From NCBI GenBank assembly GCA_964016885.1, contig CAXHJY010000928.1, positions 124,001-188,000 on the forward strand: a stretch of DNA of 64,000 nt. Direction: 5' to 3'. Below are positions 1,081 through 30,382 of the stretch, piece by piece. Positions within the stretch are counted from its first letter, which is position 1. Every line of letters starts with the position of its first letter. A model generated the notes under the pieces. The model made no database searches and was not told where the DNA came from. It saw only the letters and a program-made list of their open reading frames with translations. Origin of the DNA: Eledone cirrhosa. Lineage: Eukaryota. A program made the position numbers and the translations under genes.

Positions 1081-1447
1081 TTGTATGTATGTATATATAT
1101 ATGTATGTATGTATATATATATGTATATATATATGTATATATATATGTATATATATATGTATATATGTATGTATATATGTATATATGTATGTATATATGT
1201 ATGTATGTATATATGTATGTATATATGTATGTATATATGTATGTATATATGTATGTATATATATATGTATATATGTATGTATATATGTATGTATATATGT
1301 ATGTATATATGTATGTATATATGTATATATATATCTATGTATATATGTACATGTATGTATATATGTATATATATATATGTATATATATATGTACATGTAT
1401 GTATATATGTATATATATATATGTATATATATATGTACATGTATATA

Positions 1448-1682: not shown

Positions 1683-1688
1683 ATCCAC

Positions 1689-2023
1689 TTGGCTTAGTGT
1701 TTAGAGCATTGGCCTTGCAATCGAAAGGTTGTGTGTTCAATTCTCAGACCGAGTGATGTGTTGTTTCCTTGAGCAAGACACTTTATTTCACTTTGCTCCA
1801 GTTTACTCAGCTGTAGAAATGAGATGGTAGGGACTGGGGTCCCTATCATTCCACTGCAAAGTGGTCGTGGAGGTGCCACGGCAAAAAAGCACCCAGCACT
1901 CACTGTAAATGAGGTTGGTGTTAGGAAGGGCATCCAGCTGTAGAAATCGAGCCAGAATCAGTTCCCATCCCACCCTTGAAAGCAGGGAAAAAGCGGATGT
2001 AAAATGAAATGATGATGATGATG
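1689..2023 (+). mobile_element. tRNA-derived SINE (CORE-like central segment) with RTE-type 3' tail and (ATG)n end
   Basis: Pol III A-box-like TGGCTTAGTGTTTAGAGC and B-box-like GTGTTCAATTC; CORE-like GTTGTTTCCTTGAGCAAGACACTT; 3' end CCCACCCTTGAAAGCAGGGAAAAAGCGGATGTAAAATG..(ATG)n. A second copy lies inverted at 5781-6127. Confidence 0.85.
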
Positions 2024-5139: not shown

Positions 5140-6958
5140 CAAAACTCCGAGTTGGAACCATCAACGTAAGCACAATGAAAGGAAGAGCACGAGAAATCGT
5201 TGTAGAGATGTTAGAGCGAAATTGATGTATGTTGTGTGCAAGAAACTAGATGGAGAGGAGAGTCCGCTAGAGTGCTTGTAGGCAAAAATCAGTGCTACAA
5301 ATTTTTCTGGGTGGGAAATTACGAGATGGGTGGTGTAGGTATACTATTAGTTGACAAATGGATAGATAAGGTAATCTTAGTGAACAGGGTGAACGCAAGA
5401 ATCATTAAACTCTTGAATAAAACAATTGCCACAATAATATCAGCTTATGCACCCCAATCGGGGTTGCCAGACGAACTTAAGGATAGGTTTTACGAGTCCC
5501 TAATGCACACTACTGCCCTAACAAACAACAGTGACTTCCTAATCATTGCAAGTGACTTTAACAGACACGTAGGTAAACTCCATGACATCTTCTATAGAGT
5601 CCATGGAGGCACAAGAAATGAAGAAGGCTTCAGGCATCTAGAGTTCTGTGACACCAATGACATGTTGATATGTAACACAAACTTCAAAAATCCTGACAAT
5701 CATCTACTCAACTATAGATCAGGGGAGCATTCTAGTCAGATAGATTTTATCCTCATCAGAGGATGTGACAGGTGGTTGGTTCATCATCATCATCATCATT
5801 TCATTTTACGTCCGCTTTTTCCCTGCTTGCAAGAGTGGGACGGGAACTGATTTTGGCTTGATTTCTACAGCTGGATGCCCTTCCTAACACCAACCTCATT
5901 TACAGTGAGTGCTGCGTGCTTTTTTGCCGTGGCACCTCCACGACCACTTTGCAGTAGAATGATATGGACCCCAGTCCCTATCATCTCATTTCTACAGCTG
6001 AGTAAACTGGAGCAATGTGAAATAAAGTGTCTTGCTCAAGGAAACAACACATCATCCGGTCTGAGAATTGAACTCACAACCTTTCGATTGCAAGGCCAAT
6101 GCTCTAACCACTAAGCCATGTGCCTCCATTGTAAACACAAAAGCCTTCCCTAGTGAGGAATGTACCTCCCAACATAACTTAGTTGTCAGCGACCTCATTG
6201 TCAGAACTAGACGAACTTGGAATAGGGGGCAACCTGGAGAAGAAAGATCTGGAAGCTGAAAGACCCCTCAGCCAGTAACAGATTTAAAGATATTTTACTC
6301 AACGACTATGACAGTAAAGAAGAACAGATAGAGACATTCAATGTAGAAGAGCACTGGGAGTTCCTAAAAAATAACTTACTAGAGGCGACGGATGAGATCT
6401 GTGGTTGGAGCAAGACCACAGGGAGGAGGAGAGTGACTTGGTGGTGGAACAATAAGATAGATGAGGCAGTTAAGGCCAAGAGACAGGCATGGAAAGAATG
6501 GAAGAATGGGGGAAGCAGGGTACATTACATAGAGACCAGGAGGGAAGCTAGGCGACAAGTATACTTAGCTAGGAGAGAAGCAGAGGATAGAAAATTCAAG
6601 CATGTTTTGTAGCATGAGGACCAGAAACAGGAGGCATTCAAGATTGCGAAGCAGTGTGTTAGAGAAAATTGTGATGTCATTGGAGAGAAGTGTGTCCTGA
6701 ATGATAAAGGTGAGCTTGCCCTCACAAGTGCTGAGAAGAAAGATTACTAAATGAGGAGAATGTATGGGAGAAAGAGACCCTACCCCAAGTGGACCCAATA
6801 GAGGGCCTAGCAATACAAGTCAGCAGCAGCATAGTAAGGCAATCAAAGATATGAAGACTGGGAAGGCAACTGGTCCATTGGGTATAGCTGAAGGCATCTG
6901 GGTCGGTAGGTCACACCATAACCACACGTATTGTTACCCAGGTAATACTAGAGGGTTA
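5140..6958 (+). mobile_element. RTE-clade LINE, endonuclease through start of RT, decayed, interrupted by a SINE; same family as 1-1080
   Basis: KLRVGTINVSTMKGR..VQETRW..GGVGILL..IISAYAPQ..ASDFNRHVG..ICNTNFK..SQIDFIL (APE endonuclease). It resumes after the SINE as IVNTKAFPSEECTSQHNLVVSD..VTWWWN. 6612-6958 matches the reverse complement of ~700-1080 with small deletions. Confidence 0.9.
5781..6127 (-). mobile_element. tRNA-derived SINE, apparently full length, inserted antisense into the RTE endonuclease
   Basis: The reverse complement begins GGAGGCACATGGCTTAGTGGTTAGAGCATTGGCCTTGCAATCGAAAGGTTGTGAGTTCAATTCTCAG (A and B boxes), is highly similar to 1689-2023 and ends in (ATG)n. Confidence 0.87.
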
Positions 6959-8215: not shown

Positions 8216-8550
8216 ATCATCATCATCATCATCATCACCGTTTTACGTCCGTTCTTCCACGCTAGCATGGGTTAGACGGGTTGTCCTGTTGTGGGCAGTG
8301 TCTGGTCGGCTGACCATGCCTTGCTCATACAGGAACTGATTTGGCTTGATTTCTACAGCTGGATGCCCTTCCTAACACCAACCTCATTTACAGTGAGTGC
8401 TGGGTGCTTTTTCGTGGTGCCTACACGTCCACTTTACAGTGTGGGCTGGGTGCTTTTTTTGCTGTGGCACCTCCACGACCAACTTGCGGTGGGGGGTGTG
8501 GGGGCATATTGTCTATATGCTTCAGCTTGTACCCATGGGAGGTCGGGTAC
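8216..8550 (-). mobile_element. 5'-truncated RTE 3' UTR copy ending in (ATG)n; near-identical to 27706-28031
   Basis: (CAT)n-CCGTTTTACGTCCGTTCTTCCACGCTAGCATGGGTTAGACGGG...CCCATGGGAGGTC recurs at 27706-28031, where it is attached to an RTE ORF C-terminus. Confidence 0.8.
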
Positions 8551-8587
8551 TCTGGATAAAATATCTCTCTCTCATATATATTAGTAC

Positions 8588-8790: not shown

Positions 8791-8861
8791 ATACTGCATA
8801 GCACAATATTTACTTACCTTATGCACCAAATTTATTCACAGTAATTCTTTTTGAAGACATC

Positions 8862-9334
8862 CTTCTTGAAGACATCACCCGGATCACTGATGGTGGCTCA
8901 TGGGTGGATGTTGTTTATCTTGACTTTGCTAAAGCTTTTAATTCTGTATCACAAGATTTATGGCAAAACTCTTTGCAATGGGTGTGAGAGATGATCTGTT
9001 CTTGGCCCCCTTTTGTTTGTTGCATATATTAATGACATAGATGCCAACTTAGAGAATGCCACAGTACTGAAATATGCAGATGACATCAAGCTGTACCTTG
9101 AGATAAAAAGGACAGATCCTGAACACTATAGATCTTGCCTGCAATCTGACCTGGACACAATGAAACAATGGATCAAGGATTGGCAACTCAAGCTGGCTGT
9201 GGACAAGTGTACCACCATGCATTTTGGGAGTAAAAATCCAGCATCCACATACTCCCTCCACAACACTAATATCAAGAAGTCTTTTTGTGAACGTGACCTG
9301 GGTATTACGGTCAGCAGCGATTTGCATTGGACGA
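8862..9334 (+). mobile_element. CR1-group LINE ORF2 reverse transcriptase fragment, internally deleted
   Basis: LEDITRITDGGSWVDVVYLDFAKAFNSV, then LGP.LFVAYINDI..KYADDIKLY..LQSDLD..W..WQLKLAVDKC..MHFG..ERDLGITVSSDLHW; these are CR1-type RT and thumb motifs. Confidence 0.9.
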
Positions 9335-9445
9335 AGTAACGCAATCAAAGATATGAAGATGAGGAAAGCAACCGGTCCATTGGGTATAGCTGCTGAGATG
9401 CTGAAGGCAGGTCACACTATAACCACACGTATTGTTAACCAGGTA
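9335..9445 (+). mobile_element. ~110-bp RTE fragment spliced between the CR1 RT and the CR1-derived satellite
   Basis: Encodes [35 protein letters not shown] and matches ~6833-6945 and the reverse complement of ~712-831. Confidence 0.85.
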
Positions 9446-9448
9446 GTT

Positions 9449-12400
9449 TGGAACAAACTATCTGCATCAGTTGTTAGCTGTCGAGACACTGCATCCTTTA
9501 AAACCTCCATAGAACAAACTACCTGCATCAGTTGTTAGCTGTCCAGACACTGCATCCTTTAAAACCTCCATGGAACAAACTACCTGCATCAGTTGTTAAC
9601 TGTCGCGACACTGCATCCTTTAAAACCTCCATGGAACAAACTGACTGCATCAGTTGTTAGCTGTCGAGACACTGCATCCTTTAAAACCTCCATAGAACAA
9701 ACTACCAGCATCAGTTGTTAGCTGTGAAGACACTGCATCCTTTAAAACCTCCATAGAACAAACTACCAGCATCAGTTGTTAGCTGTCAAGACACTACATC
9801 CTTTAAAACTTCCATGGAACAAACTACCTGCATCAGTTGTTAGCTGTCAAGACACTGTATCCTTTAAAAATTCCATGGAACAAACTACCAGCATCAGTTG
9901 TTAGCTGTCAAGACACTACATCCTTTAAAACCTCCATGGAACAAACTACCTGCATCAGTTGTTAGCTGTCAAGACACTGCATCCTTTAAAACCTCCATGG
10001 AACAAACTCCCTGCATCAGTTGTTAGCTGTCAAGACACTACATCCTTCAAAACCTCCATGGAACAAATTCCCTGCATCAGTTGTTAGCTGTCAAGACACT
10101 GCATACTTTAAAACCTCCATGGAACAAACTACCTACATCAGTTGTTAGCTGCTGAGACACTGCATCCTTTAAAACCTCCATGGAACAAACTACCTGCATC
10201 AGTTGTTAACTGTCGAGACAGTGCATCCTTTAAAACCTCCATAGAACAAACTACCTACATCAGTTGTTAGCTGTCGAGACACTGCATCCTTTAAAACCTC
10301 CATGGAACAAACTACCTGCATCAGTTGTTAGCTGTCAAGACACCGCATCCTTTGAAACCTTCATTTACAAACTACCTGCATCAGTTGTTAGCTGTGAAGA
10401 CACTGCATCCTTTAAAACCTCCATAGAACAAACTAACAGCATCAGTTGTTAGCTGTCAAGACACTACATCCTTTAAAACTTCCATGGAACAAACTACCTG
10501 CATCAGTTGTTAGCTGTCAAGACACTGCATCCTTTTAAACCTCCATAGAACAAACTGCCTGCATCAGTTGTTAGCTGTCGAGACACTGCATCCTTTAAAA
10601 CCTCCATAGAACAAACTACCAGCATCAGTTGTTAGCTGTGAAGACACTGCATCCTTTAAAACCTCCATAGAACAAACTAACAGCATCAGTTGTTAGCTGT
10701 CAAGACACTACATCCTTTAAAACTTCCATGGAACAAACTACCTGCATCAGTTGTTAGCTGTCAAGACACTGTATCCTTTAAAAACTCCATGGAACAAACT
10801 ACCAGCATCAGTTGTTAGCTGTCAAGACACTACATCCTTTAAAACCTCCATGGAACAAACTACCTGCATCAGTTGTTAGCTGTCAAGACACTGCATCCTT
10901 TAAAACCTCCATGGAACAAACTCCCTGCATCAGTTGTTAGCTGTCAAGACACTACATCCTTCAAAACCTCCATGGAACAAATTCCCTGCATCAGTTGTTA
11001 GCTGTCAAGACATTGCATAATTTAAAACCTCCATGGAACAAACTACCTACATCAGTTGTTAGCTGCTGAGACACTGCATCCTTTAAAACCTCCATGGAAC
11101 AAACTACCTGCATCAGTTGTTAACTGTCAATACACTGCATCCTTTAAAACCTCCATGGAACAAATTACCTACATCAGTTGTTAGCTGCTGAGACACTGCA
11201 TCCTTTAAAACCTCCATGGAACAAACTACCTGCATCAGTTGTTAACTGTCGAGACAGTGCATCCTTTAAAACCTCCATAGAACAAACTACCTACATCAGT
11301 TGTTAGCTGTCGAGACACTGCATCCTTTAAAACCTCCATGGAACAAACTACCTGCATCAGTTGTTAGCTGTCAAGACACCGCATCCTTTAAAACCTTCAT
11401 TTACAAACTACCTGCATCAGTTGTTAGCTGTGAAGACACTGCATCCTTTAAAAACTCCATGGAACAACCTACCTGCATCAGTTGTTAGCTGTCGAGACAC
11501 TGTATCCTTTAAAACCTCAATGGTACGAACTACCTGCATCAGTTGTTAGCTGTCGAGACACTGCATCCTTTAAAACCTCGATGGAACAAACTATCTGCAT
11601 CAGTTGTTAGCTGTCGAGACACTGCATCCTTTAAAACCTCCATAGAACAAACTACCTGCATCAGTTGTTAGCTGTCCAGACACTGCATCCTTTAAAACCT
11701 CCATGGAACAAACTACCTGCATCAGTTGTTAACTGTCGCGACACTGCATCCTTAAAAACCTCCATGGAACAGACTACCTGCATCAGTTGTTAGCTGCTGA
11801 GACACTGCATCCTTTAAAACCTCCATGGAACAAACTACCTGCATCAGTTGTTAACTGTCGGGATACTGCATCCTTTAAAACCTCCATGGAACAAACTACC
11901 TGCATCAGTTGTTAGCTGCTGAGACACTGCATCCTTTAAAACCTCCATGGAACAAACTACCTGCATCAGTTAACTGTCGAGACACTGCATCCTTTAAAAC
12001 CTCCATGGAATAAACTACCTGCATCAGTTGTTAACTGTCGAGACACTGTATCCTTTAAAACCTCCATGGAACAAACTGACTGCATCAGTTGTTAGCTGTC
12101 GAGACACTGCATCCTTTAAAACCTCCATATAACAAACTACCTGCATCAGTTGTTAGCTGTCAAGACACTGCATCCTTTAAAACCTCCATGGAACAAACTA
12201 CCAGCATCAGTTGTTAGCTGTCAAGACACTGCATCCTTTAAAACCTCCATGGAACAAACTACCTACATCAGTTGATAGCTGCTGAGACACTGCATCCTTT
12301 AAAACCTCCATGGAACAAACTACCTGCATCAGTTGTTAACTGTCGGGACACTGCATCCTTTAAAACCTCCATGGAACAAACTACCTGCATCAGTTGTTAA

Positions 12401-15400
12401 CTGTCGAGACACTGCATACTTTAAAACCTCCATAGAACAAACTACCTGCATCAGTTGTTAGCTGTCAAGACACTGCATCCTTTTAAACCTCCATAGAACA
12501 AACTGCCTGCATCAGTTGTTAGCTGTCGAGACACTGCATCCTTTAAAACCTCCATAGAACAAACTACCAGCATCAGTTGTTAGCTGTGAAGACACTGCAT
12601 CCTTTAAAACCTCCATAGAACAAACTACCAGCATCAGTTGTTAGCTGTCAAGACACTACATCCTTTAAAACTTCCATGGAACAAACTACCTGCATCAGTT
12701 GTTAGCTGTCAAGACACTGTATCCTTTAAAAATTCCATGGAACAAACTACCAGCATCAGTTGTTAGCTGTCAAGACACTACATCCTTTAAAACCTCCATG
12801 GAACAAACTACCTGCATCAGTTGTTAGCTGTCAAGACACTGCATCCTTTAAAACCTCCATGGAACAAACTCCCTGCATCAGTTGTTAGCTGTCAAGACAC
12901 TACATCCTTCAAAACCTCCATGGAACAAATTCCCTGCATCAGTTGTTAGCTGTCAAGACACTGCATACTTTAAAACCTCCATGGAACAAACTACCTACAT
13001 CAGTTGTTAGCTGCTGAGACACTGCATCCTTTAAAACCTCCATGGAACAAACTACCTGCATCAGTTGTTAACTGTCAATACACTGCATCCTTTAAAACCT
13101 CCATGGAACAAACTACCTACATCAGTTGTTAGCTGCTGAGACACTGCATCCTTTAAAACCTCCATGGAACAAACTACCTGCATCAGTTGTTAACTGTCGA
13201 GACAGTGCATCCTTTAAAACCTCCATAGAACAAACTACCTACATCAGTTGTTAGCTGTCGAGACACTGCATCCTTTAAAACCTCCATGGAACAAACTACC
13301 TGCAGCAGTTGTTAGCTGTCAAGACACTGCATCCTTTGAAACCTTCATTTACAAACTACCTGCATCAGTTGTTAGCTGTGAAGACACTGCATCCTATAAA
13401 AACTCCATGGAACAACCTACCTGCATCAGTTGTTAACTGTCGAGGCACTGCATCCTTTAAAACCTCCATGGAACAAACTTCCTGCATCAGTTGTTAGCTG
13501 TCGAAACACTGCATCCTTTAAAACCTCCATAGAACAAACTACCTGCATCAGTTGTTAGCTGTCAAGACACTGCATCCTTTAAAACCTCCATGGAACAAAC
13601 TACCAGCATCAGTTGTTAGCTGTCAAGACACTGCATCCTTTTAAACCTCCATAGAACAAACTGCCTGCATCAGTTGTTAGCTGTCGAGACACTGCATCCT
13701 TTAAAACCTCCATAGAACAAACTACCAGCATCAGTTGTTAGCTGTGAAGACACTGCATCCTTTGAAACCTCCATAGAACAAACTACCAGCATCAGTTGTT
13801 AGCTGTCAAGACACTACATCCTTTAAAACTTCCATGGAACAAACTACCTGCATCAGTTGTTAGCTGTCAAGACACTGTATCCTTTAAAAACTCCATGGAA
13901 CAAACTACCAGCATCAGTTGTTAGCTGTCAAGACACTACATCCTTTAAAACCTCCATGGAACAAACTACCTGCATCAGTTGTTAGCTGTCAAGACACTGC
14001 ATCCTTTAAAACCTCCATGGAACAAACTCCCTGCATCAGTTGTTAGCTGTCAAGACACTACATCCTTCAAAACCTCCATGGAACAAATTCCCTGCATCAG
14101 TTGTTAGCTGTCAAGACATTGCATACTTTAAAACCTCCATGGAACAAACTACCTACATCAGTTGTTAGCTGCTGAGACACTGCATCCTTTAAAACCTCCA
14201 TGGAACAAACTACCTGCATCAGTTGTTAACTGTCAATACACTGCATCCTTTAAAACCTCCATGGAACAAATTACCTACATCAGTTGTTAGCTGCTGAGAC
14301 ACTGCATCCTTTAAAACCTCCATGGAACAAACTACCTGCATCAGTTGTGAACTGTCGAGACAGTGCATCCTTTAAAACCTCCATAGAACAAACTACCTAC
14401 ATCAGTTGTTAGCTGTCGAGACACTGCATCCTTTAAAACCTCCATGGAACAAACTACCTGCATCAGTTGTTAGCTGTCAAGACACCGCATCCTTTAAAAC
14501 CTTCATTTACAAACTACCTGCATCAGTTGTTAGCTGTGAAGACACTGCATCCTTTAAAAATTCCATGGAACAACCTACCTGCATCAGTTGTTAACTGTCA
14601 ATACACTGCATCCTTTAAAACCTCCATGGAACAAATTACCTACATCAGTTGTTAGCTGCTGAGACACTGCATCCTTTAAAACCTCCATGGAACAAACTAC
14701 CTGCATCAGTTGTTAACTGTCGAGACACTGCATCCTTTAAAACCTACATGGAACAAACTTCCTGCATCAGTTGTTAGCTGTCAAGACACTGCATCCTTTA
14801 AAACCTCCATAGAACAAACTACCAGCATCAGTTGTTAGCTGTCAAGACACTGCATCCTTTAAAACCTCCATGGAACAAACTCCCTGCATCAGTTGTTAGC
14901 TGTCAAGACACTACATCCTATAAAACCTCCATGGAAGAAACTACCTACATCAGTTGTTAACTGCTGAGACACTGCATCCTTTAAAAACTCCATGGAACAA
15001 CCTACCTGCATCAGTTGTTAACTGTCAATACACTGCATCCTTTAAAACCTCCATGGAACAAATTACCTACATCAGTTGTTAGCTGTCGAAACACTGCATC
15101 CTTTAAAACCTCCATAGAACAAACTGCCTGCATCAGTTGTTAGCTGTCGAGACACTGCATCCTTTAAAACCTCCATAGAACAAACTAGCAGCCTCAGTTG
15201 TTAGCTGTCAAGACACTGCATCCTTTAAAACCTCCATAGAACAAACTACCAGCATCAGTTGTTAGCTGTCAAGACACTGCATCCTTTAAAACCTCCATGG
15301 AACAAACTCCCTGCATCAGTTGTTAGCTGTCACGACACTACATCCTATAAAACCTCCATGGAAGAAACTACCTACATCAGTTGTTAACTGCTGAGACACT

Positions 15401-18400
15401 GCATCCTTTAAAACCTCCATGGAACAAACTACCTGCATCAGTTGTTAGCTGTCAAGACACTGCATCCTTTAAAAACTCCATGGAACAAACTACCAGCATC
15501 AGTTGTTAGCTGTCAAGACACTGTATCCTTTAAAAACTCCATGGAACAAACTACCAGCATCAGTTGTTAGCTGTCAAGTCACTGCATCCTTTAAAACCAA
15601 CCATGGAACAAACTACCAGCATCAGTTGTTAGTTGTCAAGTCACTGCATCCTTTAAAACCTCCATGGAACAAACTACCTGCATCAGTTGTTAACTGTCAA
15701 GACACTGCATCCTTTAAAACCTTCATTTACAAACTACCTGCATCAGTTGTTAGCTGTGAAGACACTGCATCCTTTAAAAACTCCATGGAACAAACTACCT
15801 GCATCAGTTGTTTACTGTCGAGACACTGCATCCTTTAAAACGTCCATGGAACAAACTGCCTCCATCAGTTGTTAACTGTCAAGACACTGTATCCTTTAAA
15901 AACTCCATGGAACAAACTACCAGCATCAGTTGTTAACTGTCGAGACACTGCATCCTTTAAAACCTCCATAGAACAAACTACCAGCATCAGTTGTTAGCTA
16001 TCAAGACACTGCATCCTTTAAAACCTCCATGGAACAAACTACCTGCATCAGTTGTTAGCTGTCAAGACACTGTATCCTTTAAAAACTCCATGGAACAAAC
16101 TACCAGCATCAGTTGTTAGCTGTCAAGACACTGCATCCTTTAAAACCTCCATAGAACAAACTACCAGCATCAGTTGTTAGCTGTCAAGACACTGCATCCT
16201 TTAACACCTCCATGGAACAAACTCCCTGCATCAGTTGTTAGCTGTCAAGACACTACATCCTTTAAAACCTCCATGGAACAAACTACCTACATCAGTTGTT
16301 AGCTGCTGAGACACTGCATCCTTTAAAACCTCCATGGAACAAACTACCTGCATCAGTTGTTAGCTGTCAAGACACTCTATCCTTTAAAACCTCCATGGAA
16401 CAAACTACCAGCATCAGTTGTTAGCTGCTGAGACACTACATCCTATAAAACCTCCATGGAACAAACTACCTACATCAGTTGTTAGCTGTCGAGACACTGC
16501 ATCCTTTAAAACCTCCATGGAACAAACTACCTACATCAGTTGTTAGCTGCTGAGACACTGCATCCTTTAAAACATCCATGGAACAAACTACCTGCATCAG
16601 TTGTTAACTGTCGAGACACTGCATCCTTTAAAACCTCCATAGAACAAACTACCTACATCAGTTGTTAGCTGTCGAGACACTGCATCCTTTAAAACCTCCA
16701 TAAAACAAACTACCAGCATCAGTCGTTAGCTGTCAAGACACTGCATCCTTTAAAACCTCCATGGAACAAACTACCTGCATCAGTTGTTAGCTGTCAAGAC
16801 ACTCTATCCTTTAAAAACTCCATGGAACAAACTCCCTGCATCAGTTGTTAGCTGTCGAGAGACTGCATCCTTTAAAACCTCCATGGAACAAACTACCTAC
16901 ATCAGTTGTTAGCTGCTGAGACACTGCATCCTTTAAAACATCCATGGAACAAACTACCTGCATCAGTTGTTAACTGTCGAGACACTGCATCCTTTAAAAC
17001 CTCCATAGAACAAACTACCTACATCAGTTGTTAGCTGTCGGGACACTGCATCCTTTAAAACCTCCATGGAACAAACTACCTGCATCAGTTGTTAACTGTC
17101 GAGACACTGCATCCTTGAAAACCTCCATGGAACAAACTACCTGCATCAGTTGTTAGCTATCAAGACACTGCATCCTTTAAAAACTCCATGGAACAAACTA
17201 CCAGCATCAGTTGTTAGCTATCAAGTCACTGCATCCTTTAAAACCTCCATGGAACAAACTACCTGCATCAGTTGTTAGCTGTCGAGACACTGCAACCTTT
17301 AAAACCTCCATGGAACAAACTACCTGCATCAGTTGTTAGCTGTCAAGACACTGCATCCTTTAAAACCTTCATTTACAAACTACCTGCATCAGTCGTTAGC
17401 TGTCAAGACACCGCACCCTTTAAAACCTTCATTTACAAACTACCTGCATCAGTTGTTAGCTGTGAAGACACTGCATCCTTTAAAAACTCCATGGAACAAC
17501 CTACCTGCATCAGTTGTTAACTGTCGAGACACTGCATCCTTTAAAACCTCCATGGAACAAACTTCCTGCATCAGTTGTTAGCTGTCGAAACACTGCATCC
17601 TTTAAAACCTCCATAGAACAAACTACCTGCATCAGTTGTTAGCTGTCAAGACACTGCATCCTTTAAAACCTCCATAGAACAAACTAGCAGCATCAGTTGT
17701 TAGCTGTCAAGACACTGCATCCTTTAAAACCTCCATGGAACAAACTCCCTGCATCAGTTGTTAGCTGTCAAGACACTACATCCTATAAAACCTCCATGGA
17801 ACAAACTACCTACATCAGTTGTAAGCTGCTGAGACACTGCATCCTTTAAAACCTCCATGGAACAAACTACCTGCATCAGTTGTTAGCTGTCAAGACACTG
17901 TATCCTTTCAAACCTTCATTTACAAACTACCTGCATCAGTTGTTAGCTGTGAAGACACTGCATCCTTTAAAAACTCCATGGAACAAACTACCTGCATCAG
18001 TTGTTAACTGTCGAGACACTGCATCCTTTAAAACCTCCATAGAACAAACTGCCTGCATCAGTTGTTAGCTGTCGAGACACTGCATCCTTTAAAACCTCCA
18101 TAAAACAAACTACCAGCATCAGTCGTTAGCTGTCAAGACCCTGCATCCTTTAAAACCTCCATGGAACAAACTACCTGCATCAGTTGTTAGCTGTCAAGAC
18201 ACTCTATCCTTTAAAAACTCCATGGAACAAACTCCCTGCATCAGTTGTTAGCTGTCGAGTCACTGCATCCTTTAAAACCTCCATGGAACAAACTACCTAC
18301 ATCAGTTGTTAGCTGCTGAGACACTGCATCCTTTAAAACATCCATGGAACAAACTACCTGCATCAGTTGTTAACTGTCGAGACACTGCATCCTTTATAAC

Positions 18401-21400
18401 CTCCATAGAACAAACTACCTACATCAGATGTTAGCTGTCGGGACACTGCATCCTTTAAAACCTCCATGGAACAAACTACTTGCATCAGTTGTTAACTGTC
18501 GAGACACTGCATCCTTTAAAACCTCCATAGAACAAACTACCTGCATCAGTTGTTAACTGTCGAGACACTGCATCCTTTATAACCTCCATAGAACACACTA
18601 CCTACATCAGTTGTTAGCTCTCGAGACACTGCATCCTTTAAAACCTCCATGGAACAAACTGCCTGCATCAGTTGTTAGCTGTCGAAACACTGCTTCCTTT
18701 AAAACCTCCATAGAACAAACTACCTGGATCAGTTGTTAGCTGTCAAGACACTGCATCCTTTAAAACCTCCATGGAACAAACTACCAGCATCAGTTGTTAG
18801 CTGTCAAGACACTGCATCCTTTAAAACCTCCATAGAACAAACTGCCTGCATCAGTTGTTAGCTGTCGAGACACTGCATCCTTTAAAACCTCCATAGAACA
18901 AACTACCAGCATCAGTTGTTAGCTGTCAAGACACTGCATCCTTTAAAACCTCCATAGAACAAACTACCATCATCAGTTGTTAGCTGTCAAGACACTCCAT
19001 CCTTTAAAACCTCCATGGAACAAACTACCTGCATCAGTTGTTAGCTGTCAAGACACTACATCCTTTAAAACCTCCATGGAACAAACTACCTGCATCAGTT
19101 GTTAGCTGTCAAGACACTGCATCCTTTAAAACCTCCATGGAACAAACTACCAGCATCAGTTGTTAGCTGTCAAGACACTACATCCTATAAAACCTCCATG
19201 GAACAAACTACCTACATCAGTTGTTAGCTGTCGAGACACTGCATCCTTTAAAACCTCCATGGAACAAACTACCTGCATCAGTTGTTAGCTGTCAAGACAC
19301 TGCATCCTTTCAAACCTTCATTTACAAACTACCTGCATCAGTTGTTAGCTGTGAAGACACTGGATCCTTTAAAAACTCCATGGAACAAACTACCTGCATC
19401 AGTTGTTAGCTGTCGAGACACTGCATCCTTTAAAACCTCCATAGAACAAACTACCTACATCAGTTGTTAGCTGCTGAGACACTGCATCCTTTAAAACCTC
19501 CATGGAACAAACTACCTGCATCAGTTGTTAACTGTCGAGACACTGCATCCTTTAAAACCTCCATAGAACAAACTACCTACATCAGTTGTTAGCTGTCGAG
19601 ACACTGCATCCTTTTAAACCTCCATGGAACAAACTACCAGCATCAGTTGTTAGCTGTGAAGACACTGCATCCTTTAAAAACTCCATGGAACAAACTACCT
19701 GCATCAGTTGTTAGCTGTGAAGACACTGCATCCTTTAAAAACTCCATGGAACAAACTACCTGCATCAGTTGTTAACTGTCGAGACACTCCATCCTTTAAA
19801 ACCTCCATAGAACAAACTGCCTACATCAGTTGTTAGCTGTCGAGACACTGCATCCTTTAAAACCTCCATAGAACAAACTACCAGCATAAGTTGTTAGCTG
19901 TCAAGACACTGCATCCTTTAAAACCTCCATGGAACAAACTCCCTGCATCAGTTGTTAGCTGTCAAGACACTACATCCTTTAAAACCTCCATGGAACAAAC
20001 TACCTACATCAGTTGTTACCTGCTGAGACACTGCATCCTTTAAAACCTCCATGGAACAAACTACCTGCATCAGTTGTTAGCTGTCAAGACACTGCATCCT
20101 TTAAAACCTCCATGGAACAAACTACCAGCATCAGTTGTTAGCTGTCAAGACACTACATCCTATAAAACCTCCATGGAACAAACTACCTACATCAGTTGTT
20201 AGCTGTCGAGACACTGCATCCTTTAAAACCTCCATGGAACAAACTACCTGCATCAGTTGTTAGCTGTCAAGACACTGCATCCTTTCAAACCTTCATTTAC
20301 AAACTACCTGCATCAGTTGTTAGCTGTGAAGACACTGCATCCTTTAAAAACTCCATGGAACAAACTACCTGCATCAGTTGTTAACTGTCGAGACACTGCA
20401 TCCTTTAAAACCTCCATAGAACAAACTGCCTGCATCAGTTGTTAGCTGTCGAGACACTGCATCCTTTAAAACCTCCATAAAACAAACTACCTGCATCAGT
20501 CGTTAGCTGTCAAGACCCTGCATCCTTTAAAACCTCCATGGAACAAACTACCTACATCAGTTGTTAGCAGCTGAGACACTGCATCCTTTAAAACATCCAT
20601 GGAACAAACTACCTGCATCAGTTGTTAACTGTCGAGACACTGCATCCTTTATAACCTCCATAGAACAAACTACCTACATCAGTTGTTAGCTGTCAAGACA
20701 CTCTATCCTTTAAAAACTCCATGGTACAAACTCCCTGCATCAGTTGTTAGCTGTCGAGACACTGCATCCTTTAAAACCTCCATGGAACAAACTACCTACA
20801 TCAGTTGTTAGCTGCTGAGACACTGCATCCTTTAAAACCTCCATAGAACAAACTACCTGCATCAGTTGTTAACTGTCGAGACACCGCATCCTTTATAACC
20901 TCCATAGAACACACTACCTACATCAGTTGTTAGCTCTCGAGACACTGCATCCTTTAAAACCTCCATGGAACAAACTGCCTGCATCAGTTGTTAGCTGTCG
21001 AAACACTGCTTCCTTTAAAACCTCCATAGAACAAACTACATGCATCAGTTGTTAGCTGTCAAGACACTGCATCCTTTAAAACCTCCATGGAACAAACTAC
21101 CAGCATCAGTTGTTAGCTGTCAAGACACTGCATCCTTTAAAACCTCCATAGAACAAACTGCCTGCATCAGTTGTTAGCTGTCGAGACACTGCATCCTTTA
21201 AAACCTCCATAGAACAAACTACCAGCATCAGTTGTTAGCTGTCAAGACACTGCATCCTTTAAAACCTCCATAGAACAAACTACCATCATCAGTTGTTAGC
21301 TGTCAAGACACTGCATCCTTTAAAACCTCCATGGAACAAACTCCCTGCATCAGTTGTTAGCTGTCAAGACACTACATCCTTTAAAACCTCCATGGAACAA

Positions 21401-24400
21401 ACTACCTACATCAGTTGTTAGCTGCTGAGACACTGCATCCTTTAAAACCTCCATGGAACAAACTACCTGCATCAGTTGTTAGCTGTCAAGACACTGCATC
21501 CTTTAAAACCTCCATGGAACAAACTACCAGCATCAGTTGTTAGCTGTCAAGACACTACATCCTATAAAACCTCCATGGAACAAACTACCTACATCAGTTG
21601 TTAGCTGTCGAGACACTGCATCCTTTAAAACCTCCATGGAACAAACTACCTGCATCAGTTGTTAGCTGTCAAGACACTGCATCCTTTCAAACCTTCATTT
21701 ACAAACTACCTGCATCAGTTGTTAGCTGTGAAGACACTGGATCCTTTAAAAACTCCATGGAACAAACTACCTGCATCAGTTGTTAGCTGTCGAGACACTG
21801 CATCCTTTAAAACCTCCATAGAACAAACTACCTACATCAGTTGTTAGCTGCTGAGACACTGCATCCTTTAAAACATCCATGGAACAAACTACCTGCATCA
21901 GTTGTTAACTGTCGAGCACTGCATCCTTTATAACCTCCATAGAACAAACTACCTACATCAGTTGTTAGCTGTCGGGACACTGCATCCTTTAAAACCTCCA
22001 TGGAACAAACTACCTGCATCAGTTGTTAACTGTCGAGACACTGCATCCTTTAAAACCTCCATAGAACAAACTACCTACATCAGTTGTTAGCTGTCGAGAC
22101 ACTGCATCCTTTTAAACCTCCATGGAACAAACTACCAGCATCAGTTGTTAGCTGTGAAGACACTGCATCCTTTAAAAACTCCATGGAACAAACTACCTGC
22201 ATCAGTTGTTAGCTGTGAAGACACTGCATCCTTTAAAAACTCCATGGAACAAACTACCTGCATCAGTTGTTAACTGTCGAGACACTCCATCCTTTAAAAC
22301 CTCCATAGAACAAACTGCCTGCATCAGTTGTTAGCTGTCGAGACACTGCATCCTTTAAAACCTCCATAGAACAAACTACCAGCATCAGTTGTTAGCTGTC
22401 AATACATTGCACCATTTATAACCTTCATAGAACACACTACCTGCATCAGTTGTTAGCTGTCAATACATTGCACCATTTATAACCTTCATAGAACACACTA
22501 CCTGCATCAGTTGTTAGCTGTCAAGACACTACATCCTTTAAAACCTCCATGGAACAAACTCCCTGCATCAGTTGTTAGCTGTCAAGACACTACATCCTTT
22601 AAAACCTCCATGGAACAAACTACCTACATCAGTTGTTAGCTCCTGAGACACTGCATCCTTTAAAACCTCCATGGAACAAACTACCTGCATCAGTTGTTAG
22701 CTGTCAAGACACTGCATCCTTTAAAACCTCCATGGAACAAACTACCAGCATCAGTTGTTAGCTGTCAAGACACTACATCCTATAAAACCTCCATGGAACA
22801 AACTACCTACATCAGTTGTTAGCTGTCGAGACACTGCATCCTTTAAAACATCCATGGAACAAACTACCTGCATCAGTTGTTAGCTGTCAAGACACTGCAT
22901 CCTTTCAAACCTTCATTTACAAACTACCTGCATCAGTTGTTAGCTGTGAAGACACTGGATCCTTTAAAAACTCCATGGAACAAACTACCTGCATCAGTTG
23001 TTAGCTGTCGAGACACTGCATCCTTTAAAACCTCCATGGAACAAACTACCTACATCAGTTGTTAGCTGCTGAGACACTGCATCCTTTAAAACATCCATGG
23101 AACAAACTACCTGCATCAGTTGTTAACTGTCGAGACACTGCATCCTTTATAACCTCCATAGAACAAACTACCTACATCAGTTGTTAGCTGTCGGGACACT
23201 GCATCCTTTAAAACCTCCATGGAACAAACTACCTGCATCAGTTGTTAACTGTCGAGACACTGCATCCTTTAAAACCTCCATAGAACAAACTACCTAGATC
23301 AGTTGTTAGCTCTCGAGACACTGCATCCTTTTAAACCTCCATGGATCAAACTACCAGCATCAGTTGTTAGCTGTCAAGACACTGCATCCTTTAAAAACTC
23401 CATGGAACAAACTACCTGCATCAGTTGTTAGCTGTGAAGACACTGCATCCTTTAAAAACTCCATGGAACAAACTACCTGCATCAGTTGTTAACTGTCGAG
23501 ACACTCCATCCTTTAAAACCTCCATAGAACAAACTGCCTGCATCAGTTGTTAGCTGTCGAGACACTGCATCCTTTAAAACCTCCATAGAACAAACTACCA
23601 GCATAAGTTGTTAGCTGTCAAGACACTGCATCCTTTAAAACCTCCATAGAACAAACTACCAGCATCAGTTGTTAGCTGTCAAGACACTGCATCCTTTAAA
23701 ACCTCCATGGAACAAACTACCTGCATCAGTTGTTAGCTGTCAATACATTGCACCATTTATAACCTTCATAGAACACACTACCTGCATCAGTTGTTAGCTG
23801 TCAAGACACTGCATCCTTTAAAACCTCCATGCAACAAACTCCCTGCATCAGTTGTTAGCTGTCAAGACACTACATCCTTTAAAACCTCCATGGAACAAAC
23901 TACCTACATCAGTTGTTAGCTGCTGAGACACTGCATCCTTTAAAACCTCCATGGAACAAACTACCTGCATCAGTTGTTAACTGTCGAGACACTGCATCCT
24001 TTAAAATCTCCATAGAACAAACTACCTATATCAGTTGTTAGCTGTCGAGACACTGCATCCTTTAAAACCTCCATAGAACAAACTGCCTGCATCAGTTGTT
24101 AGCTGTCAAGACACTGTATCCTTTAAAAACTCCATGGAACAAACTACCATCATCAGTTGTTAGCTGTCAAGACACTGCATCCTTTAAAACCCCCATGGAA
24201 CAAACTATCTGCATCAGTTGTTAGCTGTCAAGATACTGCATCCTTTAAAACCTCCATGGAACAAACTCCCTGCATCAGTTGTTAGCTGTCAAGACACTAC
24301 ATCCTTTAAAACCTCCATGGAACAAACTACCTACATCAGTTGTTAGCTGCTGAGACACTGCATCCTTTAAAACCTCCATGGAACAAACTACCTGCATCAG

Positions 24401-27370
24401 TTGTTAACTGTCGAGACACAGCATCCTTTAAAACCTCCATAGAACAAACTACCTACATCAGTTGTTAGCTGTCGGGACACTGCATCTTTCAAAACCTCCA
24501 TGGAACAAACTACCTGCATCAGTTGTTAACTGTCGAGACACTGCATCCTTTAAAACCTCCATAGAACAAACTACCTACATCAGTTGTTAGCTGTCGAGAC
24601 AGTGCATCCTTTAAAACCTCCATGGAACAAACTACCTGCATCAGTTGTTAGCTGTCAAGACACTGCATCCTTTAAAAACTCCATGGAACCAACTACCAGC
24701 ATCAGTTGTTAGCTGTCAAGTCACTGCATCCTTTAAAACCTCCATGGAACAAACTACCTGCATCAGTTGTTAGCTGTCGAGACACTGCATCCTTTAAAAC
24801 CTCCATGGAACAAACTACCTGCATCAGTTGTTAGCTGTCAAGACACTGCATCCTTTAAAAACTCCATGGAACAAACTACCTGCATCAGTTGTTAACTGTC
24901 GAGACACTGCATCCTTTAAAACCTCCATAGAACAAACTGCCTGTATCAGTTGTTAGCCGTCGAGACACTGCATCCTTTAAAACCTCCATAGAACAAACTA
25001 CCTGCATCAGTTGTTAGCTGTCAAGACACTGCATCCTTTAAAACCTCCATAGAACAAACTACTAGCATCAGTTGTTAGCTGTCAAGACACTGCATCCTTT
25101 AAAACCTCCATGGAACAAACTACCTGCATCAGTTGTTAGCTGTCAAGACACTGTATCCTTTAAAAACTCCATGGAACAAACTACCAGCATCAGTTGTTAG
25201 CTGTCAAGACACTGCATCCTTTAAAACCTACATGGAACAAACTACCTGCATCAGTTGTTAGCTGTCAAGACACTGCATCCTTTAAAAACCTCCATGGAAC
25301 AAACTCCCTGCATCAGTTGTTAGCTGTCAAGATACTACATCCTTTAAAACCTCCATGAAACAAACTACCTACATCAGTTGTTAGCTGCTGAGACACTGCA
25401 TCCTTTAAAACCTCCATGGAACAAACTACCTGCATCAGTTGTTAGCTGTCAAGACACTGTATCCTTTAAAAACTCCATGGAACAAACTACCATCATCAGT
25501 TGTTAGCTGTCAAGACACTGCATCCTTTAAAACCCCCATGGAACAAACTATCTGCATCAGTTGTTAGCTGTCAAGATACTGCATCCTTTAAAACCTCCAT
25601 GGAACAAACTCCCTGCATCAGTTGTTAGCTGTCAAGACACTACATCCTTTAAAACCTCCATGGAACAAACTACCTACATCAGTTGTTAGCTGCTGAGACA
25701 CTGCATCCTTTAAAACCTCCATGTAACAAACTACCTGCATCAGTTGTTAACTGTCGAGACACAGCATCCTTTAAAACCTCCATAGAACAAACTACCTACA
25801 TCAGTTGTTAGCTGTCGGGACACTGCATCCTTCAAAACCTCCATGGAACAAACTACCTGCATCAGTTGTTAACTGTCGAGACACTGCATCCTTTAAAACC
25901 TCCATAGAACAAACTACCTACATCAGTTGTTAGCTGTCGAGACAGTGCATCCTTTAAAACCTCCATGGAACAAACTACCTGCATAAGTTGTTAGCTGTCA
26001 AGACACTGCATCCTTTAAAAACTCCATGGAACAAACTACCAGCATCAGTTGTTAGCTGTCAAGTCACTGCATCCTTTAAAACCTCCATAGAACAAACTAC
26101 TAGCATCAGTTGTTAGCTGTCAAGACACTGCATCCTTTAAAACCTCCATGGAACAAACTACCTGCATCAGTTGTTAGCTGTCAAGACACTGTATCCTTTA
26201 AAAACTCCATGGAACAAACTACCAGCATCAGTTGTTAGCTGTCAAGACACTGCATCCTTTAAAACCTCCATGGAACAAACTACCTGCATCAGTTGTTAGC
26301 TGTCAAGACACTGCATCCTTTAAAAACCTCCATGGAACAAACTCCCTGCATCAGTTGTTAGCTGTCAAGATACTACATCCTTTAAAACCTCCATGAAACA
26401 AACTACCTACATCAGTTGTTAGCTGCTGAGACACTGCATCCTTTAAAACCTCCATAGAACAAACTACCTACATCAGTTGTTAGCTGTCGGGACACTGCAT
26501 CCTTTAAAACCTCCATGGAACAAACTACCTGCATCAGTTGTTAACTGTCGAGACACTGCATCCTTTAAAACCTCCATAGAACAAACTACCTACATCAGTT
26601 GTTAGCCGTCGAGACACTGCATCCTTTAAAACCTTCATTTACAAACTACCTGCATCAGTTGTTAGCTGTGAAGACACTGCATCCTTTTAAAACTCCATGG
26701 AACAAACTACCTGCATCAGTTGTTAACTGTCGAGACACTGCACACTTAAAACCCTCCATGGAACAAACTGCCTGCATCAGTTGTTAGCCGTCGAGACACT
26801 GCATCCTTTAAAACCTCCATAGAACAAACTACCTACATCAGTTGTTAGCTGTCAAGACACTGCATCCTTTAAAACCTCCATGGAACAAACTACCAGCATC
26901 AGTTGTTAGCTGTCAAGACACTGCATCCTTTAAAACCTCCATGGAACAAACTACCAGCATCAGTTGTTAGCTGTCAAGACACTGTATCCTTTAAAAACTC
27001 CATGGAACAAACTACCAGCATCAGTTGTTAGCTGTCAAGACACTGCATCCTTTAAAACCTCCATGGAACAAACTACCTGCATCAGTTGTTAGCTGTCAAG
27101 ACACTGCATCCTTTAAAACCTCCATGGAACAAACTACCAGCATCAGTTGTTAGCTGTCAAGACACTGCATCCTTTAAAACCTCCATGGAACAAACTCCCT
27201 GCATCAGTTGTTAGCTGTCAAGACACTGCATCCTTTAAAACCTCCATGGAACAAATTCCCTGCATCAGTTGTTAGTTGTCGAGACACTGCATCCTTTAAA
27301 ACCTCCATGGAACAAACTCCCTGCATTAGTTATTAGCTGTCTAGACACTGCATCCTTTAAAAACTCCATG
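9449..27370 (+). repeat. 61-bp satellite, ~294 copies, derived from the CR1 ORF2 C-terminus
   Basis: Consensus TGGAACAAACTACCTGCATCAGTTGTTAGCTGTC(A/G)AGACACTGCATCCTTTAAAACCTCCA, head-to-tail over ~17.9 kb; one frame reads WNKLPASVVSCRDTASFKTS. Confidence 0.97.
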
Positions 27371-27558
27371 CTTCCTGAGATTCGCCAACACTACACCTGA
27401 TATTCCCCCTCCACACACACACACACACACACACGTATATCAGACTCATACAATATTCACTTCCCTGACATTTGTACATTATTCTATGTACTATACATGC
27501 ACCTTTGATGAGTTGCAGTGCTCCTGAGCACTGTATACAATAATTTCATTATTATTTT
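27371..27558 (+). mobile_element. CR1-group LINE ORF2 end, 3' UTR and (ATT)n tail
   Basis: The last monomer continues in frame FKNSMLPEIRQHYT* (TGA 27398-27400), followed by (CA)n, a stem-loop CAGTGCTC-CT-GAGCACTG (27516-27533) and AATAATTTCATTATTATT. Confidence 0.75.
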
Positions 27559-27576
27559 ATAAACTAGTTATCAATT

Positions 27577-27705
27577 ATATGTATATCTGTGTGTATGTCT
27601 GTTTGTTTATATATGTGAGTGAGTGTCAGTAAGTGTATATATGTATATATATCTGGGTGTGTCTGTGCATATGTATCTGTGTGTGTCTGTATATATATAT
27701 ATATA
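27577..27705. repeat. Degenerate (TG/TA)n low-complexity tract
   Basis: Visible GTGT/ATAT mosaic. Confidence 0.8.
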
Positions 27706-28183
27706 TCATCATCATCATCACCGTTTTACGTCCGTTCTTCCACGCTAGCATGGGTTAGACGGGTTGTTCTGTTGTGGGCAGTGTCTGGTCGGCTGACCAT
27801 GCCTTGCTCATACAGGAACTGATCTGGCTTGATTTCTACAGCTGGATGCCCTTCCTAACACCAACCTCATTTACAGTGAGTGCTGGGTGCTTTTTCGTGG
27901 CGCCTACACGTCCACTTTACAGTGTGGGCTGGGTGCTTTTTTGCCGTTGCACCTCCACAACCACCTTGCGGTAGGGGAAGTGGGGGCATATTGTTTATAT
28001 GCTTCAGCATGTACCCATGGGAGGTCAGGTACCCTGTATTACTGCGTGACGCCAGAAGTCACGGTCGTGTGTCATTGACTTTGAGAGGTGTAGTTGGGTA
28101 AGGTCGGCTTTTATCACCTCATCCCAAGTCATCTTGGGTCTCCCCACTCCGCGGTTTCCATCAACTTCTAGTGCTCTGCACCT
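27706..28183 (-). mobile_element. RTE-clade LINE 3' end (ORF C-terminus plus ~320-bp 3' UTR plus (ATG)n)
   Basis: The minus frame of ORF 28025-28249 reads RCRALEVDGNRGVGRPKMTWDEVIKADL..MTHDRDFWRHAV, the typical RTE C-terminal GRP..W..DR..W motif. Its UTR matches 8216-8550. Confidence 0.85.
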
Positions 28184-29606: not shown

Positions 29607-30382
29607 CATGATAGAACCAGGGTCCCTATTATTAAAACACCCAAGAAACCTCCTATGAGATACAACCTTGTAGGAGACCAACTAAACCTTCATAGATGTG
29701 AGATGTAACATGATAGGACTGGGGTCCCTATCATTAAAACAGCCAAGAAACCTCCTATGAGATACAACCTTGTAGGAGACCAGCTAAACCTACATAAGTG
29801 TGAGCTGTAACAACATGATAGGACTGGAGTCCCTATCATTAAAACAGCCAAGAAACTTCCTATGAGATACAACCTTGTAGGAGACCAGCTAAACCTACAT
29901 AGGTGTGAGATGTAACATGATAGGACTGGGGTCCCTATTATTAAAACAGCCAAGAAACCTCCTATGATATACAACCTTGTAGGAGACCAACTAAACCTAC
30001 ATAGGTGTGAGATGTAACATGATAGGACTGGGGTCCCTATCATTATAACAGCCAAGAAACTTCCTATGAGATACAACCTTGTAGGAGACCAGCTAAACCT
30101 ACATAGGTGTGAGATGTAACATGATAGGACTGGGGTCCCTATCATTAAAACAGCCAAGAAACCTCCTATGAGATACAACCTTGTAGGAGACCAGCTAAAC
30201 CTATGTAGGTGTGAGATGTAACATGATAGGACTGGGGTCCCTAATATTAAAACAGCCAAGAAACCTCCTATGATATACAACCTTGTAGGAGACCAGCTAA
30301 ACCTACATAAGTGTGAGCTGTAACATGATAGGACTGGGGTCCCTATTATTAGAACACCCAATAAACCCTATGAGATACAATC
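29607..30382. repeat. 102-bp minisatellite, ~7.6 copies
   Basis: CATGATAG recurs at 29607, 29709, 29814 (+3 insertion), 29916, 30018, 30120, 30222 and 30324; unit CATGATAGGACTGGGGTCCCTATCATTAAAACAGCCAAGAAACCTCCTATGAGATACAACCTTGTAGGAGACCAGCTAAACCTACATAGGTGTGAGATGTAA. Confidence 0.96.

What the first reader, a model, noticed from the sequence alone, without database searches (positions are those of the whole stretch)
8862..27558. An 18-kb satellite born inside a LINE: the last 20 codons of CR1 ORF2 amplified ~294 times in situ
Seen: CR1 RT (YADD) upstream on the + strand; a 61-bp monomer translating WNKLPASVVSCRDTASFKTSM; and an exit from the final monomer in frame into LPEIRQHYT*, 3' UTR, stem-loop and (ATT)n tail. 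Established: WNxLPxxVVxxxxxxxFK is the conserved C-terminal motif of CR1/L2 ORF2. Inference: the parent element still brackets its own satellite, which makes this an unusually complete record of satellite genesis from LINE coding sequence. The monomer junction CCATG|GAAC versus the exit CCATG|CTTCC suggests CATG microhomology seeded the first duplication, by slippage or by repeated re-priming during target-primed reverse transcription near the 3' end. If copies elsewhere also carry multiplied units before the UTR, the array could be a retro-mobile satellite, because it retains the 3' recognition end.
Basis: partly seen in the sequence, partly recalled or inferred. Interest (0 to 1): 0.8.

Follow-up and report, generated by a model that had tools for sequence, protein, structure and literature searches.

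The report
Octopus satellite from a LINE end
An 18-kb run of 294 head-to-tail 61-base repeats is a piece of a retrotransposon's coding end that related copies carry only once, between two CATG words; it likely began as a small slip at those words and likely grew by ordinary DNA block-copying, a known route to satellite DNA, and its left edge joins a fragment of a different retrotransposon rather than an intact parent.

Summary
The array is real: 294 units of 61 bp at 9449-27370, exiting in frame into the ORF2 end, 3' UTR, stem-loop and ATT tail. An intact relative (P0151) holds both the upstream RT (86% identical) and one copy of the unit.

Three claims fail or stay open. (1) The parent does not bracket the array intact: 152 codons are missing on the left, replaced by 110 bp of an unrelated RTE-type LINE. 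(2) Re-priming during reverse transcription did not build the array: no adjacent units are identical, and blocks of 5-16 units were copied at DNA level. (3) Birth at this site is likely but unproven, because the same 61-bp tandem junction occurs in runs of three species labels.

Unchecked scan notes report a 61-bp array over 50 kb and several other LINE-coding satellites elsewhere in this genome. Retrotransposon-derived satellites with a parent-like terminal unit are published. Verdict: a well-documented new member of a known kind. Retro-mobility is untested.

The parts
8847..8876 (+). 15-bp tandem duplication at the 5' edge of the LINE piece
   Evidence: TRF, 2.0 copies, 93%
8865..9001 (+). 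CR1-like ORF2 RT piece 1 (P0151 residues 35-81), with one frameshift near 8954
   Evidence: tblastn 93% and 75%
8995..9336 (+). CR1-like ORF2 RT piece 2 (P0151 residues 115-228), YADD at 9073-9084; joined to piece 1 across a deletion of about 33 codons, with 7 nt fitting both sides
   Evidence: Pfam RVT_1; 98 of 114 identical to P0151; overlap of tblastn hits; one X4 contig has 96 letters where the window has 5 (record 19)
9335..9445 (+). 110-bp fragment of a different LINE family (RTE-type; label recalled), itself lacking 12 bp, in place of 152 missing codons
   Evidence: blastn 83.9% to 709-832 and 84.1% to 6833-6944; alignment
9446..9448 (+). three bases of unclear origin at the RTE-to-array junction
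9449..27370 (+). tandem array, 294 units of 61 bp (276 of 294 exactly 61), 158 distinct sequences, mean pairwise difference 8.8%, built of duplicated multi-unit blocks
27306..27309 (+). CATG at the start of the last unit; dispersed family copies join their native upstream sequence exactly here
   Evidence: loose ends before 27306 in 11,242 (X7) and 11,678 (X8) reads, agreement 0.94
27367..27370 (+). CATG at the exit of the array
   Evidence: sequence; no other letter at 27367-27370 among the 40 rows shown (30 not shown)
27371..27400 (+). remaining ORF2 codons (LPEIRQHYT) and stop
27401..27545 (+). 3' UTR with a (CA)n run at about 27412-27434 and a stem-loop at 27515-27534
   Evidence: family depth about 12,000 at 27464-27499 in X7; fold
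27546..27556 (+). short (ATT)n tail, end of the element
   Evidence: X7 depth falls from about 6,700 (27536-27547) to 17 (27560-27571); loose ends of other copies continue in ATT repeats

Best explanation
The array is a satellite made of one 61-bp segment of a CR1-like LINE's coding end; it likely started when that segment was duplicated across its two flanking CATG words in this dead copy, at or soon after insertion, and then likely grew in place by repeated DNA-level copying of multi-unit blocks. Shown: the unit's origin, its single-copy state in the family, CATG on both sides, the in-frame exit and the block structure. Inferred: the first duplication was a microhomology-guided slip; growth was by unequal exchange or conversion between array copies; the left flank was rearranged (456 nt lost, an RTE-type piece gained) either by template jumps during insertion or by later repair. 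The array has no reading frame and no function is proposed.
For: P0151 is one ORF with the RT (86%) and one copy of the unit; none of 152 fetched proteins has the motif twice (71 once, 81 none). 15,715 X7 reads join the unit's start to native upstream sequence reading HFFTLRVAEA, against 1,193 reads with the 61-bp go-back joint; that upstream sequence ends in GAAG before CATG. Blocks of 5-16 units recur at 0-1% divergence at lags of 15-66 units; identical pairs lie closer than in 1000 shuffles (median lag 61, shuffle minimum 66), and identity is twice as common within the left or right part as between them (0.013 vs 0.006), as expected for local growth. No derived change is fixed in the array against the unit that matches the read majority, and units differ from it by 5.4% on average, close to the UTR's 6 of 114 majority differences (rows shown, counted), so array and tail look equally old. 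The last unit shares two derived states with 26 and 39 units. The short-repeat start model is published (PMC6947457, passages).
Against: The native upstream flank, which would prove birth here, is absent. The same 61-bp junction is in X4 (16 contigs), X1 (7) and X2 (3), three species labels, and one tandem junction variant seen in X7 and X8 (37 and 48 reads) does not occur in this array, so tandem forms exist at other loci or alleles. The array's left edge falls within 2 nt of the family's unit boundary, about an 8% chance for a random later break (my arithmetic, 5/61), which fits a jump site during reverse transcription better than a later deletion. CATG is only 4 bp, below the 5-10 bp of the published model. 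No target-site duplication was found.
Confidence: 0.55

Rival explanations
1. Retro-mobile seed: a source copy already carrying two or a few units was reverse-transcribed with its 3' recognition end; the RT jumped at the CATG site to an RTE RNA and back to the CR1 RNA, producing the mosaic in one insertion, and the short array then expanded at DNA level.
For: The 3' end is complete; the left edge coincides with the unit boundary; the left flank is an ordered patchwork with short overlaps and a 15-bp duplication at its 5' edge, and extra bases or microhomology at LINE 5' junctions are published (PMC4245944, passages); tandem joints begin at 60 places in X7 although this array has no GCATGC site (the digest is my inference from read starts); two unchecked notes describe other arrays that run into a LINE tail.
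Against: Single-unit copies outnumber tandem joints about 13 to 1 in X7 (reduced-representation data, biased); none of the 25 piece rows shown bridges the RT-RTE or RTE-array junction (188,263 rows not shown); organism A's best-supported tandem junction carries organism A's own family variants, which suits repeated local births.
Confidence: 0.2
2. Import by recombination: an existing 61-bp satellite from another locus was copied into a resident LINE 3' end through unit homology (gene conversion, break-induced copying or circle reintegration). This reading was taken from an earlier scan note.
For: Native left flank missing; tandem units exist elsewhere; an unchecked note reports a 61-base array over 50 kb on another piece of this genome.
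Against: Array root equals the family majority unit and its depth matches the tail's age; identical units cluster locally; an import need not start at the unit boundary.
Confidence: 0.18
3. The whole array was written in one insertion by repeated re-priming of the reverse transcriptase.
For: Unit boundaries are exact and the root unit equals the family unit.
Against: Derived variants are shared by 32-143 units, blocks of up to 16 units are near-identical copies, and 0 of 293 adjacent pairs are identical (2.6 expected by shuffle). This needs hierarchical DNA copying after divergence.
Confidence: 0.03
4. Assembly artefact: the array length or its junctions are wrong.
For: No read or contig shown spans the junctions; all four runs have zero depth at 8817-8847; long reads were not available.
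Against: 158 distinct units, no exact repeat of 700 bp or more, and the tandem junction is present in independent runs.
Confidence: 0.04

Closest known systems
SINE-derived satellites (sSat1-3) of squamate reptiles, PMC10702118 (read: abstract and Discussion)
   Same: Internal piece of an abundant retroelement amplified to as many as 1000 units; a longer terminal unit runs on into the parent's end; independent origins in different species; some primary duplications favoured.
   Different: Parent here is LINE ORF2 coding sequence, not a SINE; the start microhomology is identified; the far edge joins a foreign LINE fragment.
Satellites containing LINE ORF2 or 3' sequence: chicken HinfI/SCR1 (CR1 3' UTR plus partial ORF2), Phodopus PROsat and seal Pvc20 (L1 ORF2), cetacean common satellite (L1 3' part); seen as passages and table rows in PMC9659126 and PMC6947457, primary papers not read
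   Same: Tandem repeat related to LINE coding or 3' sequence, including the CR1 group.
   Different: The reviews describe partial similarity or embedded pieces; here the whole 61-bp unit is parent sequence and one parent junction is in frame.
Minisatellite birth between short flanking repeats (Haber and Louis 1998, as summarised in PMC6947457; passages read)
   Same: Unit bounded by a short direct repeat in the single-copy ancestor; first duplication by slippage or unequal exchange, then amplification by slippage, conversion or unequal crossing-over.
   Different: The repeat here is 4 bp rather than 5-10 bp, and the array reached 18 kb.
Maize CRM1TR and CRM4TR, PMC3648361 (abstract read)
   Same: Tandem repeats wholly derived from a retrotransposon, born more than once from similar regions, with locus-specific variants.
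   Different: LTR-element LTR/UTR origin at centromeres rather than a non-LTR coding end.

Membership tests
CR1-clade LINE (parent) | ORF2 with endonuclease plus RT domain (PMC6609765, passage) | tested here: inconclusive
   RT shown in the window; endonuclease shown only in the more distant relative P0002 (59% to the RT piece); window copy and P0151 begin downstream of it
CR1-clade LINE (parent) | Conserved C-terminal region after the RT domain | tested here: met
   65 of 120 relatives have WN.LP; where YADD was also found it lies 237-253 residues upstream; P0151 has it at 381 with YADD at 141. That this motif marks the published CTCR is recalled.
CR1-clade LINE (parent) | RT phylogeny inside CR1 rather than L2 or sister clades | not testable with these tools
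   No clade-labelled references were held; the tree places the RT with P0151 and three of the proteins (P0125 named in full as Octopus bimaculoides) at 99/97 (27 of 152 fetched proteins used)
CR1-clade LINE (parent) | 3' UTR stem-loop and short tandem-repeat tail (feature list recalled) | tested here: met
   Stem-loop 27515-27534; the read-majority letters leave a 7-bp stem by inspection; ATT tail in many copies
CR1-clade LINE (parent) | 5' truncation; short or absent target-site duplication (recalled) | tested here: inconclusive
   Truncated at P0151 residue 35; no duplication found beyond AT-rich chance matches
Retroelement-derived satellite (sSat-like) | Long head-to-tail array | tested here: met
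   294 units, 17.9 kb
Retroelement-derived satellite (sSat-like) | Unit equals a segment that dispersed parents carry once | tested here: met
Retroelement-derived satellite (sSat-like) | Terminal unit continues into the parent on at least one side | tested here: met
   3' side yes; 5' side no
Retroelement-derived satellite (sSat-like) | Several loci and homogenisation between them | tested here: inconclusive
   Tandem joints in four runs and one variant foreign to this array; loci could not be counted
Retro-mobile satellite (array carried by LINE RNA) | Multi-unit copies with tail at many loci, sharing variants, with insertion hallmarks | not testable with these tools
   No genome held; contigs and 150-base reads do not resolve loci
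Retro-mobile satellite (array carried by LINE RNA) | Transcript with two or more units plus tail | not tested

The most novel reading that the evidence does not exclude
The CATG pair in this LINE family is a reverse-transcriptase jump site: the enzyme slips back 61 nt there to write short tandem seeds that keep the 3' recognition end and move as RNA, and jumps there to foreign RNAs to make chimeras. The LINE would then be a standing factory of satellite seeds that fires independently in several octopus lineages.
Probability: 0.2. Interest if true: 0.6.

Novelty: new member of a known kind. Interest (0 to 1): 0.32.

Why it matters
Satellite birth from retroelements is known, but the start site is rarely pinned down. 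Here the single-copy ancestor, the 4-bp start microhomology, the in-frame exit and tandem forms under three species labels are all visible, so one family offers a countable series from one unit to hundreds. That makes a standing question testable: whether first duplications arise during reverse transcription or afterwards in DNA. The locus itself is a poorer record than claimed because its left flank is rearranged, and unchecked scan notes suggest such arrays are common in this genome.

Tried and rejected
Two metagenome pattern scans found 0 loci each. Rfam on 1-32500 gave 0 matches. Scan look-ups by sequence found no look-alike stretch and none near this place. The first homolog search (longer proteins) reached only 61% identity; the close relatives came. 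Depth sums of contigs were not used as copy numbers. Whether organism D is the window's species is not established. Four paper searches listed no paper describing this octopus satellite; PMC13282606 (part 1 of 3 read, plus a term search: 'satellite' 0 at word start, 'tandem' 2) does not discuss it in the text seen, but its supplementary repeat library was not opened and may list it. PMC4758252 (passages) added nothing.

Full report
Observation. Tandem Repeats Finder gives 294.0 copies of a 61-bp unit at 9449-27370. Cutting the array gave 294 units, 276 of them 61 bp long, in 158 distinct sequences, with a mean pairwise difference of 8.8%. The unit reads WNKLPASVVSCRDTASFKTS. The last unit runs in frame into MLPEIRQHYT and a stop at 27398-27400, so the unit is codons 30 to 11 from the end, not the last 20. 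Because 61 is not divisible by 3 the array has no long frame (longest 121 codons). Downstream lie a UTR, a stem-loop at 27515-27534 (z -2.73 for 27440-27560) and a short ATT tail.

Parent family. The piece at 8995-9336 is an RT (Pfam RVT_1). Its closest named relatives are octopus proteins at 74-86% identity (P0125 is named in full as Octopus bimaculoides). P0151, reached through the C-terminal peptide, is one 410-residue ORF that is 98 of 114 identical to the RT piece and 20 of 30 identical to the exit peptide, with one copy of the unit's motif. None of the 152 fetched proteins has the motif twice (71 once, 81 none). A tree groups the window RT with P0151 and three of the proteins at 99/97, but no clade-labelled references were available, so CR1 versus L2 membership rests on motifs and on recall.

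The left side is not an intact parent. In relatives YADD and WN.LP are 237-253 residues apart. The window lacks P0151 residues 229-380, 152 codons. In their place is 9335-9445, which matches two copies of a different LINE in the same window at 84%; I call it RTE-type from recall. It lacks 12 bp of its own, and three unassigned bases join it to the first unit. A second deletion removes about 33 codons between the two RT pieces, with 7 nt fitting both sides; one X4 contig holds 96 letters where the window has 5. The 5' edge carries a 15-bp duplication, and no target-site duplication was found. The native sequence upstream of the unit occurs 0 times in the window.

The microhomology prediction passed. 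No genome was held, so I laid public runs on the two edges. In raw run X7, 15,715 reads join the unit's start to one upstream sequence (agreement 0.93) that translates HFFTLRVAEA, close to the residues before the motif in P0147, P0149 and P0150. On the right edge the same loose end sits exactly before 27306 in 11,242 (X7) and 11,678 (X8) reads, and 27306-27309 is CATG. The exit has CATG at 27367-27370. Dispersed copies thus carry one unit between two CATG words 61 bp apart. The family is abundant: depth in X7 is about 24,000 on the unit, 12,000 on the UTR and 250-870 on RT piece 2. These are reduced-representation data and give no copy number.

Tandem forms exist elsewhere. The 61-bp go-back joint appears in 1,193 X7 reads from 60 start places, in 16 X4 contigs, 7 X1 contigs and 3 X2 contigs, under three species labels (308 joint rows not shown). 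One junction variant with 37 reads in X7 and 48 in X8 is absent from this array. In organism A the family mostly has C and T at unit positions 58 and 59 (58% and 84% of contig depth; about 3% in X7), and its best-supported listed junction with changed letters carries those letters (table 5c; 12 rows shown, 284 not), whereas this array has T and C in 274 and 271 of 276 units. That suggests repeated birth at the same site in each lineage; it is suggestive only. Read starts point to a digest at GCATGC and AATT (my inference); this array has 0 GCATGC sites, so X7's tandem reads likely come from other loci or alleles.

How the array grew. 0 of 293 adjacent pairs are identical (2.6 expected by shuffle), and the nearest relative of a unit lies a median of 20 units away. 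Blocks of 5-16 units recur at 0-1% divergence with lags of 15-66. Derived variants are shared by 32-143 units. Identical pairs are closer than in any of 1000 shuffles and twice as common within the left or right part as between them. This is hierarchical DNA copying in place, not repeated re-priming on one RNA. It also argues against an artefact: no exact repeat reaches 700 bp. No derived change is fixed against the unit that matches the read majority, and units differ from it by 5.4%, like the UTR's 6 of 114 (from the rows shown), so the first duplication likely came at or soon after insertion.

Mechanism. Most likely (0.55): a slip across the CATG pair made the first duplication in this copy, and block copying did the rest; the left flank was rearranged at insertion or later. 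Against this, the array's left edge lies within 2 nt of the family's unit boundary (about 8% by chance), and none of my data show the native left junction. A short multi-unit seed carried by RNA with template jumps (0.2) and import from another array by recombination (0.18) stay open. None of the 25 piece rows shown bridges the mosaic junctions, but 188,263 rows were not shown.

Comparison with what is known. Squamate SINE-derived satellites show the same anatomy: up to 1000 units, a terminal unit that runs into the parent's end, independent origins (PMC10702118, abstract and Discussion read). Reviews list satellites related to CR1 and L1 ORF2 or 3' ends (PMC9659126 and PMC6947457, passages) and the short-flanking-repeat start model. 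Maize CRM-derived repeats arose more than once from similar regions (PMC3648361, abstract). Extra bases and microhomology at LINE 5' junctions are described in PMC4245944 (passages). Searches listed no paper on this octopus repeat; the O. vulgaris repeat paper (PMC13282606, part 1 of 3 and a term search) does not discuss it in the text seen, and its supplements were not opened. Earlier scan notes, unchecked, report a 61-base array over 50 kb and a 45-copy array running into a LINE tail on other pieces of this genome, and several satellites from other LINE coding pieces.

Verdict. Real, well explained, and a new member of a known kind. Interest 0.32. The most novel reading not excluded is a reverse-transcriptase jump site that seeds mobile short arrays in several lineages (probability 0.2, interest 0.6).

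Noticed in passing
window 31819-64000+: Second satellite, 37-bp unit, at least 870 copies, 95% matches, running off the window's end; no match to the non-array parts of the window in a short blast.
   Followed up: partly
window 29607-30380: 102-bp minisatellite, 7.6 copies; its unit starts at a CATG and holds a 20-bp stretch also found at 1831-1850 and 5958-5977.
   Followed up: partly
window 1686-2023 and 5785-6122: Two 338-bp composite repeats, 95% identical, in inverted orientation around 3.7 kb of decayed LINE sequence.
   Followed up: no
window 8222-8557 and 27705-28039: Two 95% identical copies of a repeat that starts in a (CAT)n run, in the same orientation on either side of the finding.
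   Followed up: partly
window 1-1083, minus strand: RTE-type ORF piece open for 360 codons with YADD, cut by a 600-bp TA-rich microsatellite at 1084-1684; a young copy of the family that donated 9335-9445.
   Followed up: partly
window 9395-9409: Inside the RTE-type piece, 15 bases resemble the family's native sequence just upstream of the first CATG (13 of 15 by eye, against the loose end), and the 12-bp deletion falls right behind them. Unexplained; may be chance.
   Followed up: no
window 9449-27370: A variant junction that destroys CATG (13 of 293 junctions) and a G-to-A change in it (73 of 293) spread with the blocks, so growth no longer needs the microhomology.
   Followed up: partly
window 8817-8847: Zero depth in all four runs just left of the LINE piece; could be an insertion polymorphism, a species difference or a filter effect.
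   Followed up: no
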